DNA of 64,000 nt. Source: a bacterium (GTDB taxonomy: Bacteria; Cyanobacteriota; Vampirovibrionia; Gastranaerophilales; Gastranaerophilaceae). Location: positions 24,561-88,560 of the forward strand of contig JAFUXT010000030.1 in the NCBI GenBank assembly GCA_017470815.1, read 5' to 3'. The notes under the pieces are model-generated. The model saw only the letters and a list, made by a program, of their open reading frames with translations. It was not told where the DNA came from and searched no databases. Position numbers and translations under genes: made by a program. This document shows positions 42,354 through 46,127 of the stretch, piece after piece (positions within the stretch are counted from its first letter, which is position 1; each line of letters opens with the position of its first letter).

Positions 42354-42388
42354 AAAAAAAGGGTTCTCAAAATGAGAACTCTTTTTTT
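42354..42388. terminator. Bidirectional terminator between rpsP and the convergent helicase gene
   Basis: A-run, GGGTTCTC-AAAAT-GAGAACTC, then T7. Overlaps the helicase stop codon. Confidence 0.55.
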
Positions 42389-45137
42389 ATTGCCATTTTG
42401 AAAGTCGTTTTGATTTTGGGCGGTTCATATTTGAAAAGGCATCTTTTCTTGCACTCAACAATGTTATTCTTCCTTGAGTGTTTCTTGTATATATAATCTC
42501 GCATTCCCCGATATATTTCTCCCACAAGGCTTTAAAAACATTTACATCATTTTTGTTGTTTGATAATATTGCAGGAATTGAAAAATAATCGGTTTGTTTT
42601 TGTCCTAAAAGATTCCCATGCCTTACAAACAGATACCTCGGGTTTTCAACAGGGTCAAGAAACTCTCTCATACATTTTATAAACAAATTATTTTCTTCGG
42701 TCGGAAGATTTGCACAGGATACATAAACCCCTTCTTCATCCTGAGTAACCTCAAGTCCGACAATTTTTAATGACGATTTTATATACCCCTGATAAGAAAG
42801 AGATTCAAGCATAACGATTCCAATTTGCTTCATCACCCCTGCAACTGAACCGGTTTTGAGATATTTTAAACCTATATTCCCGAATATAAACATAAATACT
42901 ACAATTATTATCCCTACAACATAAAGTCCATAAATATGCCGTATTGGAACAGAACAAATTATTGATACCATCAGCCAAAATATAGAATTTAAGATTTGTT
43001 TGTAACCGTTATAAGTCAGAGTTCTTAGGTTAAATTTTTCTGCTTCAACCCCTGTTCTTAATTTCATCTTTGAATTATTATATCCTAAATTCAGGGCATC
43101 ATTCCACCACTGTTTTGTTTGTTCACGGTTTTTAGCAAATTCAAGAGTTCTGCGGTTCATTTCATTAAAGGCTTTCTCGCCTTTTTCTGTAATAAGTTTT
43201 TGAACTTCTTTTGAGGTAAACAATCGTTCTAAACCGCTGCGAATTTCATGCCTGCCGTAATATGAAGGAGCCTCAAAGCCTTCAAAGCGTTTTGTCAATT
43301 GCTTGTAATCATAAAATAAAGAATTTACTTCATCTTTTTGGTCAAAGTCTGTTGTTATCGGAGTAAACAAAATCTCGGAAAAAGATTTTTCAGACGGGAT
43401 ACCGATAGTTGCAAGGTGCCAGATATTAGAAATTTTATCCGGATTATTTTTATCAATTCTAATTGCTCTGCCACGCATTTGATTTGACAGCATATAAGAA
43501 CTTACAGTGCTTGACAAAATCAAGGAATTTATACTCGGAGCATCCCAGCCTTCACCCAAAAGTGCCTGCGTGCCGACTAAAATCGTTATATGACCTTTAT
43601 TAAACATCTCCGTAATAAGACTTACTATGACATTTTTTGCACTTTCTTTCGGAGTTATCTTTATGTAATTTTCGTCCTCACTATATCCAGAAATCGCTAC
43701 ACTTGAAATATCAATATTATTTTCCCTTAGCAGCGAATTAAAATCATTTTGTTTGTCTTTAGGCAATAAAATAAGCGAACCGCAAAGAACACCAAGACTC
43801 ATTTGTTCCTGCGAAAATTTATTTTTCAGAATTCTCCAGATAGGAATAACTCCTAAGTGAGTATTATCCGTATCTTTATCTTTTATGTAATCCGCAAGAA
43901 TTACCATACGCAAATCTTTGCCTAATGAATCAGTTTCAATTTGTGCTATTTCAACTATCGAATCCATTTTTCCGGTACTTGATGCAACCTGACGCTGAAT
44001 TTTTATACTTTCATTAAGTACAATTTTTTTGTTATGAATAAGTCCTGCTCTTTTTGCTTGGGCAAGATAATCCTCAATTTTATCTTCTAAACCTTTAAAT
44101 TCTGTAGTATGAGTAATCAAAAAACCGTTTAAAAATCTCTTTGCCTGAGTTAAATCAAACTTGGGTATATCTCTTTCTTTTGCATTAAACAATGCCGGAA
44201 ATTCTTTTGAGATTTTAAAGCCGAGACTATGTAACAATGAAGCAACAGAAACATAAAATTCAGGGGCTTCAAGAATTTTTTCAACTTCATCATTTGTATT
44301 TATTAAAAAACTCATTCTGCTCAAATATTTTATAAGTTCGTTATCTTTTGTAATTTTTTCTACAAACTGCTTTACCGCAAGTTCGTGCTTTTTAATCATC
44401 TCTTTTTCGCTGTCGCGAAGTTTTGAAAAATATACAAAATCCTGATGCGGACAAAGGTCATTATTTTGAACAAGTTCAGGAATAGAGATAACTTCATCAA
44501 TTTCTCCGCAAAGTTCTTCATATCTGTTCCATTCATTCAAATCTGCATCATAAGGCGGAGTCGCAGTAAGCGCAAGTGTTTGTTCAGGTTCAAGATTATC
44601 ATTAAGATATGTCAAAGCCTTCCACCACTCTTTTCTTAAATGGTGTGCTTCATCAAAACATAACAAAGAAACTTTTGCACTTTTTAAAATATTTATTATT
44701 TCATCCGCTTTATCCGCGTTAAATCTGCTTGAAGATTTTATAGAGTCAACATCAATTTCATCATCTGAACTTTCATCATAAGTTTGCGGTTCTGCATCAT
44801 CATTTTTCCCGCAAAATGCAGCAAGCAACGCCTGATAAGTTGTTACGGTAATAAATTTCGGTTCTCTTATATTAGTTGAAACAATTTCATAATCTTTTTC
44901 ATCAAGAAACGCACAACAAATTCGGTCTTTCCACTGATTTTTAATTGTATTTGTCGGTGCAAGGATAAGTGTCGGACGGTTTATTCTTGATATAACTTCT
45001 ATTCCCAATGTCGTTTTCCCTGCTCCCGGCGCAGCAACAACATGAAGTTTTTTATCTCTCAAATGAAAAGATAAATTATCTAAAATTCTTTTTTGATAAT
45101 CTCTCCAACGACCCTTAAATTTTAAAATACTTTCCAA
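42387..45137 (-). CDS. SF2 (XPB/Res-type DEAH) helicase with a C-terminal two-helix membrane anchor and an unassigned ~150-aa C-terminal domain
   Basis: WRDYQ, Walker A AAPGAGKT, DEAH box CFDEAHHL, motifs V and VI LVGTQALLGEGWDAPS...QMRGRAIR. Hydrophobic segments ILNSIFWLMVSIICSVPI and GLYVVGIIIVVFMFIFGNIGL lie at about nt 42850-43000. Confidence 0.8.
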   Translation of the reverse strand: MESILKFKGRWRDYQKRILDNLSFHLRDKKLHVVAAPGAGKTTLGIEVISRINRPTLILAPTNTIKNQWKDRICCAFLDEKDYEIVSTNIREPKFITVTTYQALLAAFCGKNDDAEPQTYDESSDDEIDVDSIKSSSRFNADKADEIINILKSAKVSLLCFDEAHHLRKEWWKALTYLNDNLEPEQTLALTATPPYDADLNEWNRYEELCGEIDEVISIPELVQNNDLCPHQDFVYFSKLRDSEKEMIKKHELAVKQFVEKITKDNELIKYLSRMSFLINTNDEVEKILEAPEFYVSVASLLHSLGFKISKEFPALFNAKERDIPKFDLTQAKRFLNGFLITHTTEFKGLEDKIEDYLAQAKRAGLIHNKKIVLNESIKIQRQVASSTGKMDSIVEIAQIETDSLGKDLRMVILADYIKDKDTDNTHLGVIPIWRILKNKFSQEQMSLGVLCGSLILLPKDKQNDFNSLLRENNIDISSVAISGYSEDENYIKITPKESAKNVIVSLITEMFNKGHITILVGTQALLGEGWDAPSINSLILSSTVSSYMLSNQMRGRAIRIDKNNPDKISNIWHLATIGIPSEKSFSEILFTPITTDFDQKDEVNSLFYDYKQLTKRFEGFEAPSYYGRHEIRSGLERLFTSKEVQKLITEKGEKAFNEMNRRTLEFAKNREQTKQWWNDALNLGYNNSKMKLRTGVEAEKFNLRTLTYNGYKQILNSIFWLMVSIICSVPIRHIYGLYVVGIIIVVFMFIFGNIGLKYLKTGSVAGVMKQIGIVMLESLSYQGYIKSSLKIVGLEVTQDEEGVYVSCANLPTEENNLFIKCMREFLDPVENPRYLFVRHGNLLGQKQTDYFSIPAILSNNKNDVNVFKALWEKYIGECEIIYTRNTQGRITLLSARKDAFSNMNRPKSKRLSKWQ

Positions 45138-45146
45138 TATTTTCCC

Positions 45147-45845
45147 CTAAATATTCAATTTATAGCCACCACCATAAATTGTTTCAATATATTTTTTACC
45201 ATCAGAAATTTTATCAATTTTACTGCGTAAATGCCTTATATGAACTCTTATTGTTTCTATATCATCATCAGGCGAATATCCCCATATCTCTTTTAAAAGT
45301 TTGGCAGAAGATACCATATTACCGTGATTTTGAAACAACAAATTAAATATATCAAATTCAATCGGAGTGAGTTTTGCCTGCTTATCACCGATTCTTACAC
45401 TATATTGCTCAGGCAATAATGTAATTTCACCGATAGACTGCAAATCTCTTACCGACGCAGATTTTGGTATTTGATTTGTGCGTTTTAATAATGCCCTTAC
45501 TCGAACAAGAAGTTCTTCAATTTCAAAAGGTTTTACAAGATAATCATCAACCCCTATATTAAAACCGTTTACCTTGTCATTAAGTTGAGATAATGCTGTC
45601 AGCATAATTATCGGAATATTTTTTGTTTCATCATTTTCTCTTATTCTTTTTGCAACGGTAAACCCGTCAACTTCAGGCATCATAACATCAAGCACAACAA
45701 GCGAGGGCAACTCCTGTTTTGCAAGAGCAAAACCTTTAATCCCGTCAAACGCCTGCACAACCTGATAGCCTGCAAGTTCAAGATTTACTTTTATAAGTTC
45801 ATTTATTGATATATCATCATCAACTACAAGAATTTTATTATTCAT
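45147..45845 (-). CDS. OmpR/PhoB-family response regulator (RpaB-like receiver plus winged helix)
   Basis: KILVVDDD, VVLDVMMPEVDG (phospho-Asp), IIMLTA and DDYLVKPF. C-terminal IETIYGGGYKL winged helix. Confidence 0.9.
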   Translation of the reverse strand: MNNKILVVDDDISINELIKVNLELAGYQVVQAFDGIKGFALAKQELPSLVVLDVMMPEVDGFTVAKRIRENDETKNIPIIMLTALSQLNDKVNGFNIGVDDYLVKPFEIEELLVRVRALLKRTNQIPKSASVRDLQSIGEITLLPEQYSVRIGDKQAKLTPIEFDIFNLLFQNHGNMVSSAKLLKEIWGYSPDDDIETIRVHIRHLRSKIDKISDGKKYIETIYGGGYKLNI

Positions 45846-45848
45846 AAT

Positions 45849-46127
45849 TTATTTTGCCTGTGCCAATTTTTTCTGTTTATATTCCAAAAGGCATGTTGCA
45901 AGTTGATCAGGACAACTTGTGGATTTTGGACCGCAAGATATTCCTCCCAATCTTTCAATTACCTCATCTATTGTCATACCTTTTATGAGTTCTCTGATTC
46001 CTGATAAATTCCCGTTACAACCTCCAAAGAATGCCGCATCAACAATTTTATTATCCTCGACTGCGACCTGCATCATTTGACAACAAACACCTTGTGGTTG
46101 ATATTGTAAAATTTCCTGCTTGCCCAT
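45849..46127 (-). CDS. TSCPD-domain protein (TIGR03905-like small Cys-rich protein)
   Basis: 92 aa with GGCNGNLSGI and the eponymous STSCPDQLA motif. Ends 3 nt before the response regulator gene. Confidence 0.75.
   Translation of the reverse strand: MGKQEILQYQPQGVCCQMMQVAVEDNKIVDAAFFGGCNGNLSGIRELIKGMTIDEVIERLGGISCGPKSTSCPDQLATCLLEYKQKKLAQAK

What the first reader, a model, noticed from the sequence alone, without database searches (positions are those of the whole stretch)
42387..46127. Compact operon: TSCPD protein, orphan OmpR-type response regulator and a membrane-anchored SF2 helicase
Three minus-strand genes are separated by only 3 and 9 nt. The first is a 92-aa TSCPD (four-Cys) protein. 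The second is an RpaB-like response regulator; no histidine kinase is present anywhere in the window. The third is a 916-aa XPB/Res-type DEAH helicase. After its helicase core comes a ~120-aa helical region, then two adjacent hydrophobic helices, then a ~150-aa C-terminal domain (…ENPRYLFVRHGNLLGQKQTDYFSIPAIL…YTRNTQGRITLLSARKD) that I cannot assign. A helicase tethered to the membrane by a helical hairpin is unusual. Coupling it to a phospho-relay regulator and a small redox- or metal-type Cys protein suggests a signalling or surveillance module rather than bulk DNA repair. No methyltransferase or nuclease partner that would mark a classical R-M system lies nearby.
Basis: partly seen in the sequence, partly recalled or inferred. 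Interest (0 to 1): 0.68.

Follow-up and report, generated by a model that had tools for sequence, protein, structure and literature searches.

The report
Solitary membrane-anchored helicase beside unrelated regulator
The three tightly packed genes are real, but the regulator and small cysteine protein are only lineage-specific neighbours; the notable part is the helicase, one member of a widespread, unstudied family that seems tethered to the membrane and ends in a domain with no known relative.

Summary
Three minus-strand genes lie 3 and 9 nt apart: a TSCPD protein (92 aa), an OmpR-type response regulator (232 aa) and an SF2 helicase (916 aa). The window comes from a rumen Gastranaerophilales (Melainabacteria) genome and is otherwise housekeeping.

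The "signalling module" reading is not supported.
- The helicase family is large: more than 2,900 clusters at 90% identity, 771 representatives at 50% identity, and several phyla.
- In most lineages it has no conserved neighbour.
- The regulator sits upstream only in one Gastranaerophilales clade, and TSCPD only in the closest genomes.
- Searching from the regulator instead, only 3 of about 27 orthologue loci carry the helicase. Several show an empty site (RR–rpsP–tig).
- The regulator is RpaB/WalR-like, a class that is normally encoded away from its kinase.

The helicase is still unusual. It has an XPB/Hef-like motor with a helical insertion. It then has two hydrophobic helices whose sequence varies freely while their hydrophobicity is kept. 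Its α/β C-terminal domain is modelled confidently but matches nothing in Pfam, NCBIfam, PHROGs, PADLOC, PDB or BFVD.

My best reading is an autonomous, dispensable, membrane-tethered nucleic-acid translocase. Its biological role is unknown. A defence role is possible but gets little support from gene context.

The parts
46154..46182 (-). Sigma-70-like promoter match (TTGAAA-17-TAAAAT, 10/12) upstream of the TSCPD gene
   Evidence: This is a consensus match only. The region held 26 such matches against 20.3 expected by chance, so it is weak evidence.
45849..46127 (-). TSCPD four-Cys protein, 92 aa (TIGR03905 family)
   Evidence: It lies next to the RR only in the closest relatives: 7 of 79 helicase loci, plus the same-species contigs.
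45147..45845 (-). OmpR-family response regulator, 232 aa. Receiver is aa 5-116 (45498-45833) and winged helix is aa 155-230 (45156-45383). It is RpaB/WalR/MtrA-like.
   Evidence: The canonical D10/D11, D53, T83 and K105 were read from the sequence. It stays 88-100% identical across the RR-linked clade while the helicase drops to 57%.
42387..45137 (-). 916-aa SF2 helicase of an uncharacterised family. TTG start, 9 nt after the RR stop.
44424..45110 (-). RecA-like lobe 1 (aa 10-238). Walker A is AAPGAGKT, motif II is DEAH and motif III is TATP. A low-confidence acidic loop spans aa 112-129.
   Evidence: Pfam ResIII. XPB RecA1 by PDB profile, E 4e-10. Motifs are invariant. AF2 model.
43914..44414 (-). 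All-helical insertion between the two RecA lobes (aa 242-408)
   Evidence: AF2 secondary structure. Foldseek hits to Hef, FANCM and RIG-I/LGP2 as well as XPB.
43407..43907 (-). RecA-like lobe 2 (aa 411-577), with motif V TQALLGEGWD and motif VI QMRGRAIR
   Evidence: Pfam Helicase_C. Invariant columns.
43038..43349 (-). Conserved post-helicase region (aa 597-700): helices plus one strand at 693-700
   Evidence: No Pfam, NCBIfam or PDB match.
42852..43007 (-). Two adjacent hydrophobic helices (aa 711-729 and 735-762): the putative membrane hairpin
   Evidence: Hydrophobicity is conserved in 96 members while sequence identity is only 33% (close relatives) and 9% (distant ones). Both flanks are basic.
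42390..42851 (-). Juxtamembrane helix plus alpha/beta C-terminal domain (aa 763-916). Conserved NPRY, YTR..GR..LL.AR and a terminal W.
   Evidence: AF2 model of the domain alone, pLDDT 87. Foldseek best E is 0.74 against PDB and 0.06 against BFVD. No PHROG hit. It is always C-terminal in proteins of about 900 aa.
42363..42379 (-). Terminator-like hairpin plus T-run, 8 nt after the helicase stop and convergent with rpsP

Best explanation
The helicase is an autonomous single-gene unit. It belongs to a widespread, uncharacterised family of XPB/Hef-like SF2 ATPases.

Inferred architecture:
- An N-terminal motor (two RecA lobes with a helical insertion) sits in the cytoplasm.
- A helical hairpin holds it at the cytoplasmic face of the inner membrane. 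The second helix is strongly hydrophobic and the first only marginally so.
- The hairpin returns the chain to the cytoplasm, where a conserved Arg- and aromatic-rich alpha/beta C-terminal domain follows.

Inferred mechanism: ATP-driven translocation or remodelling of nucleic acid that lies at, or enters through, the membrane. The C-terminal domain would act as a substrate- or ligand-binding or regulatory module.

In this organism the gene happens to lie downstream of the conserved RpaB/WalR-like regulator and is probably co-transcribed with it. A TSCPD gene has been added upstream only in the closest relatives sampled. Neither neighbour is a functional partner.

Shown here: architecture, family breadth, conservation pattern, lack of conserved partners, and dispensability. 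Inferred: membrane insertion and topology, substrate, and biological role.
For: Family and architecture:
- More than 2,900 clusters at 90% identity, nearly all about 915 aa and full length.
- The C-terminal 325 aa finds 771 representatives at 50% identity. The match always ends at the C-terminus, and nearly all full-length hits are about 900 aa.
- The short hits examined are fragments or a frameshift product.

Motor:
- All SF2 motifs are invariant.
- Foldseek gives XPB at E 3e-14, then Hef, RIG-I/LGP2 and FANCM.

Hairpin (96 members):
- The second helix has a mean Kyte-Doolittle score of 2.56 over 17 residues, above 1.6 in 99% of members. The first averages 1.72.
- The loop has a median length of 10 aa.
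- K+R per 15 flanking residues is 2.4 on the N side and 2.8 on the C side, against 0.116 per residue in the loop. The C flank has only 0.3 D+E.
- Sequence identity in the hairpin is 33% among close relatives and 9% among distant ones. The C-terminal domain shows 67% and 35%.
- In the full-length model a strand before the hairpin (693-700) and the terminal strand (910-915) are both ordered. The terminal strand is disordered when the C-terminal domain is modelled alone. This hints that the segments before and after the hairpin pack together on the same side of the membrane.

Autonomy:
- No conserved neighbour outside one clade.
- Among 149 flanking proteins from 48 loci, no Pfam family occurs in more than 3.
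- Empty RR-rpsP-tig sites exist in lineages interleaved with helicase-bearing ones. L102, which lacks the helicase, has a tig 84% identical to that of L021, which has it.
- Long residence in each genome: helicase GC tracks flank GC (r = 0.96), and the tree shows taxon-coherent clades.
- Fixed within the species: all 10 contigs found by exact RR sequence show the helicase gene directly downstream, complete wherever the contig extends far enough.
Against: - No dedicated topology predictor was available.
- With a simple Hessa free-energy sum, only the second helix of the window protein scores as inserting (-2.3 kcal/mol). About half of the distant members have no window at or below 0.5 kcal/mol.
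- The first helix is marginal, at about +4 kcal/mol by my hand sum.
- I could not inspect model coordinates, so the packing of the hairpin is not verified.
- Substrate (DNA or RNA) and function are untested.
- The 4-51 nt RR-helicase spacing kept in 26 of 28 loci of the RR-linked clade leaves room for clade-specific co-regulation.
Confidence: 0.62

Rival explanations
1. First reader's model. TSCPD, RR and helicase form a functional signalling or surveillance module: a redox or metal signal passes through phospho-relay to, or together with, a membrane-anchored helicase.
For: Gaps of 3 and 9 nt, one promoter-like site and one terminator-like site. The RR-helicase gap is 51 nt or less in 26 of 28 loci of one Gastranaerophilales clade. 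The arrangement is invariant in 10 of 10 same-species contigs.
Against: TSCPD is present in only 7 of 79 helicase loci, and RR in only 28 of 79. No OmpR-type RR was found anywhere in the loci from other phyla at blastp E 1e-5. About 24 of 27 RR-orthologue loci lack the helicase, and several show an empty site. L003 and L010 have genes inserted between RR and helicase, and L014 has the helicase without RR. The RR evolves like a core regulator, at 88-100% identity against 57-97% for the helicase.
Confidence: 0.08
2. The helicase is a single-gene anti-phage or anti-plasmid system. The motor senses or engages incoming DNA at the membrane. The hydrophobic hairpin and/or the C-terminal domain then acts as effector, for example by membrane disruption or abortive infection.
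For: Patchy, dispensable distribution with presence or absence at one conserved site. An old cross-phylum transfer is likely, since the Bacteroidales clade is sister to a Gastranaerophilales clade at 55-58% identity. The ResIII-type motor is common in defence systems. From general knowledge, transmembrane effectors are common in abortive-infection systems.
Against: PADLOC gives no significant match; the best hit is E 1.5e-6, on generic helicase motifs only. Neighbours are not defence islands: of 149 flanking proteins, only one RT and two PDC-S27 candidates hit at E 1e-8 or better. It is nearly absent from plasmids (5 of 72,556 records) and phages (2 unannotated fragments). It diverges at about the rate of trigger factor, and its GC is fully ameliorated. 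No nuclease or other recognisable effector domain is present.
Confidence: 0.2
3. The hydrophobic helices are not membrane-spanning. They form a buried core or an oligomerisation interface in a soluble helicase.
For: The first helix is only marginally hydrophobic. Half of the distant members fail a simple Hessa threshold. AF2 models the helices with pLDDT of about 80-89 but cannot tell lipid from protein surroundings.
Against: Uncharged stretches of 19-43 residues occur at this position in many members. The second helix exceeds the Kyte-Doolittle threshold in 99% of 96 members. This is the least conserved segment in sequence (9% identity among distant members) while its hydrophobicity is kept, which is the opposite of a buried core. 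Both flanks are basic and the loops are variable and polar.
Confidence: 0.1

Closest known systems
Archaeal/bacterial XPB (Rad25/Ssl2, COG1061) helicases, usually paired with the Bax1 nuclease
   Same: Best sequence and fold match for the motor: PDB profile E 4e-10 on RecA1 and Foldseek E 3e-14. Both have a DEAH-type motif II and a ResIII-type RecA1.
   Different: The NCBIfam XPB model scores 43.6 bits against a cutoff of 610. No N-terminal damage-recognition domain was detected. No Bax1 partner or other nuclease was seen among the flanking genes. This protein adds a 170-aa helical insertion between the lobes, a hydrophobic hairpin and a 150-aa C-terminal domain, all absent from XPB.
Hef / FANCM / RIG-I-like helicases
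   Same: A helical insertion accompanies the two RecA lobes and extra modules follow the motor. Foldseek gives E 5e-11 to 2e-10.
   Different: No Hef-type nuclease domain, no RIG-I zinc C-terminal domain and no CARD or HhH domains. The C-terminal domain here has no fold match. Sequence identity is only 12-17%.
Type III (Res) and type I (HsdR) restriction motor subunits
   Same: The Pfam ResIII match is the strongest domain hit (E 2e-21). There are weak PADLOC and NCBIfam hits to type I R subunits on RecA2.
   Different: No PD-(D/E)xK nuclease domain. No Mod, HsdM or HsdS gene in the window or in 80 related loci. Scores lie far below the curated cutoffs.
Membrane-associated DNA motors: FtsK/SpoIIIE and ComFA (functional analogues only)
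   Same: The concept of an ATP-driven nucleic-acid motor held at the cytoplasmic membrane.
   Different: From general knowledge, FtsK/SpoIIIE are RecA/AAA+-type hexameric pumps with N-terminal transmembrane segments, and ComFA is a peripheral DEAD-box protein encoded in a competence operon. The protein here is an SF2 XPB-like motor with a C-proximal hairpin and no com, fts or tra context.
RpaB (NblS/Hik33-RpaB) and WalR/MtrA-class OmpR regulators
   Same: The RR's best NCBIfam model is RpaB (E 4e-62), followed by PhoB, MtrA and YycF. The receiver residues are canonical. It is encoded without a kinase, as RpaB is. Melainabacteria are reported to keep RpaA/RpaB/NblS homologues (PMC3787301).
   Different: The score of 209.6 is below the RpaB equivalog cutoff of 330, so orthology is not established.
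TIGR03905 stand-alone TSCPD proteins and the TSCPD C-terminal domain of class II ribonucleotide reductases
   Same: Passes both TIGR03905 (104.6 bits against 67.7) and PF12637. The four Cys are present.
   Different: No RNR gene was identified among the window ORFs scanned. The function of the stand-alone family is unknown.

Membership tests
SF2 helicase/translocase superfamily | Two RecA-like lobes with Walker A, DExH, motif III, motif V and motif VI | tested here: met
   AAPGAGKT, DEAH, TATP, TQALLGEGWD and QMRGRAIR are invariant or nearly so in 63 sequences. Pfam ResIII and Helicase_C match. AF2 and Foldseek agree.
XPB (NF045503 repair_heli_XPB equivalog) | Full-length match at or above the curated cutoff of 610 bits | tested here: not met
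   43.6 bits, covering aa 11-105 only.
XPB-Bax1 system | Adjacent Bax1 (COG3372/DUF790) nuclease gene | tested here: not met
   The window flanks are RR and rpsP. No family occurs in more than 3 of 48 loci, and no nuclease appears among the 25 most frequent families, which is all the tool lists.
Type III / type I restriction-modification | Methyltransferase (Mod/HsdM) partner and a nuclease domain in the motor subunit | tested here: not met
   No methyltransferase in the window ORFs scanned or among the recurrent neighbours in related loci. No Pfam nuclease domain in 40 members.
Known anti-phage defence systems (PADLOC-DB v2.0.0) | Significant match to a system-specific HMM, and system partner genes | tested here: not met
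   Best hits are PbeA at E 1.5e-6 and REase_I at 3.5e-6, on generic motor segments. Neighbours are not defence genes. Catalogues newer than 2023 were not available.
Integral membrane (helical hairpin) protein | Two segments of about 20 residues hydrophobic enough to span the bilayer, with basic cytoplasmic flanks | tested here: inconclusive
   Kyte-Doolittle scores are 1.78 and 2.61 in the window protein. The second helix passes in 99% of 96 members and the first in 55%. The flanks are basic. A simple Hessa sum supports only the second helix. No DeepTMHMM run and no experiment.
   RR in 28 of 79 loci and TSCPD in 7 of 79. About 3 of 27 RR-orthologue loci have the helicase.
OmpR-family response regulator | Receiver with the phospho-acceptor Asp pocket, plus a winged-helix Trans_reg_C domain | tested here: met
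   PF00072 at E 1e-26 and PF00486 at E 7e-23. D10/D11, D53, T83 and K105 were read from the sequence.
RpaB equivalog (NF045944) | Score at or above 330 bits | tested here: not met
   209.6 bits. It is the top-ranked model but sits below the cutoff.
TIGR03905 TSCPD four-Cys family | Score at or above 67.7 bits, and four conserved Cys | tested here: met
   104.6 bits. Cys are present in the GVCCQ, GGCNG, ISCGP and TSCPD motifs.

The most novel reading that the evidence does not exclude
The helicase represents a previously undescribed class of membrane-embedded SF2 nucleic-acid motors. It has at least 771 clusters at 50% identity and occurs in Melainabacteria, Bacteroidota, Elusimicrobia, Alpha- and Deltaproteobacteria and Bacillota. 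Its new-fold cytoplasmic C-terminal domain and hairpin would couple nucleic-acid translocation to the membrane. Possible roles are a stand-alone surveillance or exclusion device acting on DNA as it enters the cell, or a motor that resolves membrane-tethered DNA or RNA.
Probability: 0.3. Interest if true: 0.72.

Novelty: new variant of a known kind. Interest (0 to 1): 0.45.

Why it matters
As far as my literature and database searches reach, SF2 helicases are treated as soluble enzymes. This family is phylogenetically broad and strongly conserved. It adds a membrane hairpin and a C-terminal domain that is modelled confidently yet matches nothing. That would define a new architectural class of nucleic-acid motor working at the membrane.

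It also offers a tractable target. Culturable carriers include Elusimicrobium posterum, Pseudovibrio, Thalassospira and Paenibacillus cellulositrophicus.

The case is also a caution about method. Tight operon-like packing next to a regulator turned out to be lineage-specific synteny, not a functional module.

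Tried and rejected
- **Assigning the C-terminal region.** Pfam on 40 diverse members, NCBIfam, PHROGs, a PDB profile search, and AF2 plus Foldseek against PDB and BFVD gave nothing significant. 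The weak Foldseek hits (ferredoxin-like or ACT-like folds, CapRel) had probability of about 0.2 or less, so I did not use them.
- **Stand-alone C-terminal-domain proteins of 300-360 aa.** The nine I examined were contig-edge fragments starting at internal Met residues, or a frameshift product as in L096/L097.
- **P0271 (1374 aa) as an informative fusion.** It is an internal duplication, probably an assembly artefact.
- **Mobile-element cargo.** Rejected. The family is nearly absent from plasmid and phage collections, and its GC matches the flanks.
- **Literature.** Searches for membrane-anchored or transmembrane helicases, COG1061 plus transmembrane, SF2 plus membrane anchor, and TSCPD found nothing relevant.
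- **Histidine-kinase motif regex over window ORFs.** No hits, but this is a weak test. The Pfam scans supersede it.
- **Giant neighbouring ORF and TSCPD against PDB sequences.** Nothing.

Full report
**1. The observation**

- a 92-aa protein at 45849-46127;
- a 232-aa protein at 45147-45845;
- a 916-aa protein at 42387-45137.

The helicase starts at a TTG preceded by a GGGG run. The gaps between the genes are 3 and 9 nt.

- The first protein is a TSCPD protein. It passes PF12637 and TIGR03905 (104.6 bits against a cutoff of 67.7).
- The second has Response_reg and Trans_reg_C domains. RpaB is its top NCBIfam model at 209.6 bits, below the 330 cutoff. PhoB, MtrA, VanR and YycF score close behind.
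- The third has ResIII at aa 10-195 and Helicase_C at aa 508-561. Nothing matches beyond aa ~575.

A promoter-like site lies upstream of TSCPD, and a terminator-like hairpin follows the helicase stop. Both fit a single transcription unit, but such consensus matches are weak evidence.

None of the 20 window ORFs scanned with Pfam (which cover all those of at least 300 aa) contains a histidine-kinase domain. The window is otherwise core chromosome. It holds SMC, LpxB, RNase E/G, TyrRS, polA, clpXP, tig, rpsP, ftsZ, tsf, rpsB, holA/holB, fructose-bisphosphate aldolase, HydF and SRP RNA. The nearest genomes are rumen MAGs. The somewhat more distant named relatives are labelled Gastranaerophilales or Melainabacteria.

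**2. The helicase belongs to a large family with a fixed architecture**

The word-index search returned more than 2,900 clusters at 90% identity. The 120 listed are 887-933 aa long and cover 97-100% of the query.

An exhaustive search with only the last 325 residues found 771 representatives at 50% identity. Nearly all full-length hits are about 900 aa, and in every hit the match ends at the protein's C-terminus.

The shorter hits I examined are artefacts:
- fragments that begin at internal Met residues;
- one frameshifted gene, seen in two independent samples;
- one 1374-aa hit that is an internal duplication.

Named members come from Pseudovibrio, Thalassospira, Elusimicrobium posterum, a Weeksellaceae isolate, Chondrinema, Paenibacillus and a deltaproteobacterial MAG. 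All are annotated only as "DEAD/DEAH box helicase family protein".

**3. Anatomy of the helicase**

The AF2 model of the full protein used a 63-sequence alignment and is good (pLDDT 82, pTM 0.79). It shows, in order:
- RecA1 (aa 10-238);
- an all-helical insertion (aa 242-408);
- RecA2 (aa 411-577);
- a conserved helical region ending in a strand (aa 597-700);
- helices at 711-729 and 735-762;
- a juxtamembrane helix (aa 765-782);
- an alpha/beta domain (aa 794-915).

Foldseek places the motor nearest XPB (E 3e-14). Hef, LGP2/RIG-I and FANCM follow. All SF2 motifs are invariant, so the enzyme should be an active ATPase.

The C-terminal domain modelled alone is confident (pLDDT 87). It has no significant structural neighbour in PDB (best E 0.74) or BFVD (best E 0.06). 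It also has no match in Pfam, NCBIfam, PHROGs, PADLOC or PDB sequences. Its conserved residues are mostly Arg and aromatic (R834, Y835, Y851, W872, Y883, R885, R890, R897, W915). No obvious catalytic acid cluster is present. I read this as a binding or regulatory domain, not a nuclease.

**4. Is the helicase membrane-anchored?**

No dedicated topology predictor was available, so I used hydropathy.

In the window protein both helices exceed the Kyte-Doolittle threshold, at 1.78 and 2.61.

Across 96 family members:
- The second helix is strongly hydrophobic. Its mean score is 2.56, above 1.6 in 99% of members.
- The first helix is marginal. Its mean score is 1.72, above 1.6 in 55%.
- The loop between them is short and variable, with a median of 10 aa.
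- Both flanks are basic, at 2.4 and 2.8 K+R per 15 residues. The C-terminal flank is almost free of acidic residues.

This segment is also the least conserved in sequence, at 33% identity among close relatives and 9% among distant ones. The C-terminal domain shows 67% and 35%. Variable sequence with conserved hydrophobicity is what lipid-facing helices show, and buried cores do not.

A crude Hessa free-energy sum supports insertion of only the second helix. It fails in about half of the distant members, so the conclusion stays provisional.

A single-span topology would put the basic C-terminal flank and the C-terminal domain outside the cell, against the positive-inside rule. An in/in hairpin, or a monotopic insertion, therefore fits best. 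One further hint points the same way. The terminal strand (910-915) is ordered only when the region before the hairpin is present in the model.

**5. Is it a three-gene module? No.**

Anchoring on the helicase (80 species-level loci):
- RR is upstream in 28 of 79 loci, all within one Gastranaerophilales clade. TSCPD is present in only the 7 closest.
- No OmpR-type RR occurs anywhere in the loci from other phyla.
- Among the RR-linked loci, L003 has two genes inserted between RR and helicase, and L010 has one. L014 has the helicase beside rpsP without RR.
- In Bacteroidales, Elusimicrobia, Alphaproteobacteria, Paenibacillus, Chondrinema, Pseudovibrio, Thalassospira and Weeksellaceae, the gene stands alone among unrelated genes, most of them housekeeping-type.
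- Among 149 proteins flanking 48 such loci, no Pfam family recurs in more than 3. The only PADLOC hits are one reverse transcriptase and two PDC-S27 candidates.

Anchoring on the RR instead (80 metagenome loci):
- Only 3 of about 27 orthologue loci with enough downstream sequence carry the helicase.
- L100 and L102-L106 have RR followed directly by rpsP, and by tig wherever the contig extends that far. This is the same site, but empty.
- Lineages with the empty site are interleaved with lineages that carry the helicase. L102, without the helicase, has a tig 84% identical to that of L021, which has it.

The RR stays 88-100% identical while the helicase falls to 57%. That pattern fits a core global regulator. 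Melainabacteria are reported to retain RpaA/RpaB/NblS homologues (PMC3787301). From general knowledge of cyanobacteria, RpaB-type regulators are encoded apart from their kinase. An "orphan" RR is therefore unremarkable.

**6. Evolutionary behaviour of the helicase**

- It is fixed within the species. All 10 contigs found by exact RR sequence show the helicase gene directly downstream, complete wherever the contig extends far enough.
- In the RR-linked clade it diverges at roughly the rate of trigger factor.
- Its GC matches the flanks over a range of 28-59% GC (r = 0.96).
- The tree shows taxon-coherent clades. One likely old cross-phylum transfer links Bacteroidales and Gastranaerophilales.
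- It is almost absent from plasmids (5 of 72,556 records, all non-mobilisable replicons of about 240 kb to 1.3 Mb) and from phages (2 unannotated fragments).
- It is nevertheless dispensable at the family or order level, as the empty sites show.

Together these describe an old, ameliorated accessory gene. It is neither an essential housekeeping gene nor typical mobile defence cargo.

**7. Mechanism**

My best reading is an autonomous, membrane-tethered XPB/Hef-like translocase. The motor and the C-terminal domain both face the cytoplasm. It would act on nucleic acid at the membrane.

The biological role is inferred, not shown. A single-gene defence or exclusion function is the most attractive specific idea. 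It would explain the patchiness, the ResIII-type motor and the membrane location. Against it stand the neighbourhoods, the slow turnover, the lack of any recognisable effector and the absence of a PADLOC match. I give it about 0.2. Roles in DNA uptake, in membrane-proximal repair, or in RNA metabolism cannot be excluded.

**8. Comparison with known families, and verdict**

The protein is a member of SF2. It is not an XPB orthologue (43.6 bits against a cutoff of 610, and no Bax1 partner). It is not an R-M motor subunit (no methyltransferase or nuclease). It matches no PADLOC v2 system.

I found no literature describing a bacterial SF2 helicase with this hairpin-plus-domain architecture.

The operon as a "module" is ordinary synteny. 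The helicase family is a new architectural variant of a known enzyme class and is moderately interesting in its own right.

Noticed in passing
window 46261-52248 (+): A giant 1995-aa ORF is transcribed divergently from the TSCPD-RR-helicase unit. It has no hit in Pfam, PADLOC, NCBIfam, PHROGs or PDB sequences. Orthologues of 1994-1996 aa occur in the five same-species contigs that span the whole gene, and a 57%-identical fragment occurs in L005.
   Followed up: partly
L096:105-2317 and L097:3-1825: A distant family member carries the same frameshift at about aa 541 in two independent samples (ENA ERZ27280227 and Logan ERR3719139). It may be a pseudogene or a genuinely split gene. It gave rise to a spurious 312-aa "C-terminal-domain-only" protein (P0157).
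   Followed up: partly
L100, L102-L106 (RR at about 5001-5696, or 2026-2721 in L103 and 98-784 in L106): Empty-site alleles. The RR orthologue (88-91% identical) is followed directly by convergent rpsP, and by tig wherever the contig extends that far. No helicase remnant was detectable by tblastn at E 1e-8.
   Followed up: yes
L003:3815-5942; L010:5525-5863: Extra ORFs lie between RR and helicase in two relatives. L003 has two unassigned ORFs of 375 and 305 aa. L010 has a 112-aa ORF on the opposite strand.
   Followed up: no
L020, L024, L026, L028-L032, L034-L035, L038-L039, L041-L044, L061, L063, L067: Bacteroidales/Prevotella/Muribaculaceae-labelled copies (one contig labelled Clostridiales), mostly with locus GC of 45-59%. 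They form a clade sister to the RR-linked Gastranaerophilales clade at 53-58% identity to the window protein. This suggests an old cross-phylum transfer within gut or rumen communities.
   Followed up: partly
window 8241-9227, 12411-14117, 16761-19007, 20402-21283 (all -): Four sizeable ORFs (328, 568, 748 and 293 aa) have no Pfam match at E 1e-5.
   Followed up: no
P0271 (1374 aa, ENA): A family member has an internal duplication of roughly aa 200-660. It is most likely an assembly artefact and not a real fusion.
   Followed up: yes
window 7160-7413 (+); whole window: A bacterial large SRP RNA is present (74.3 bits). ARAGORN found no tRNA genes in the 64 kb.
   Followed up: no
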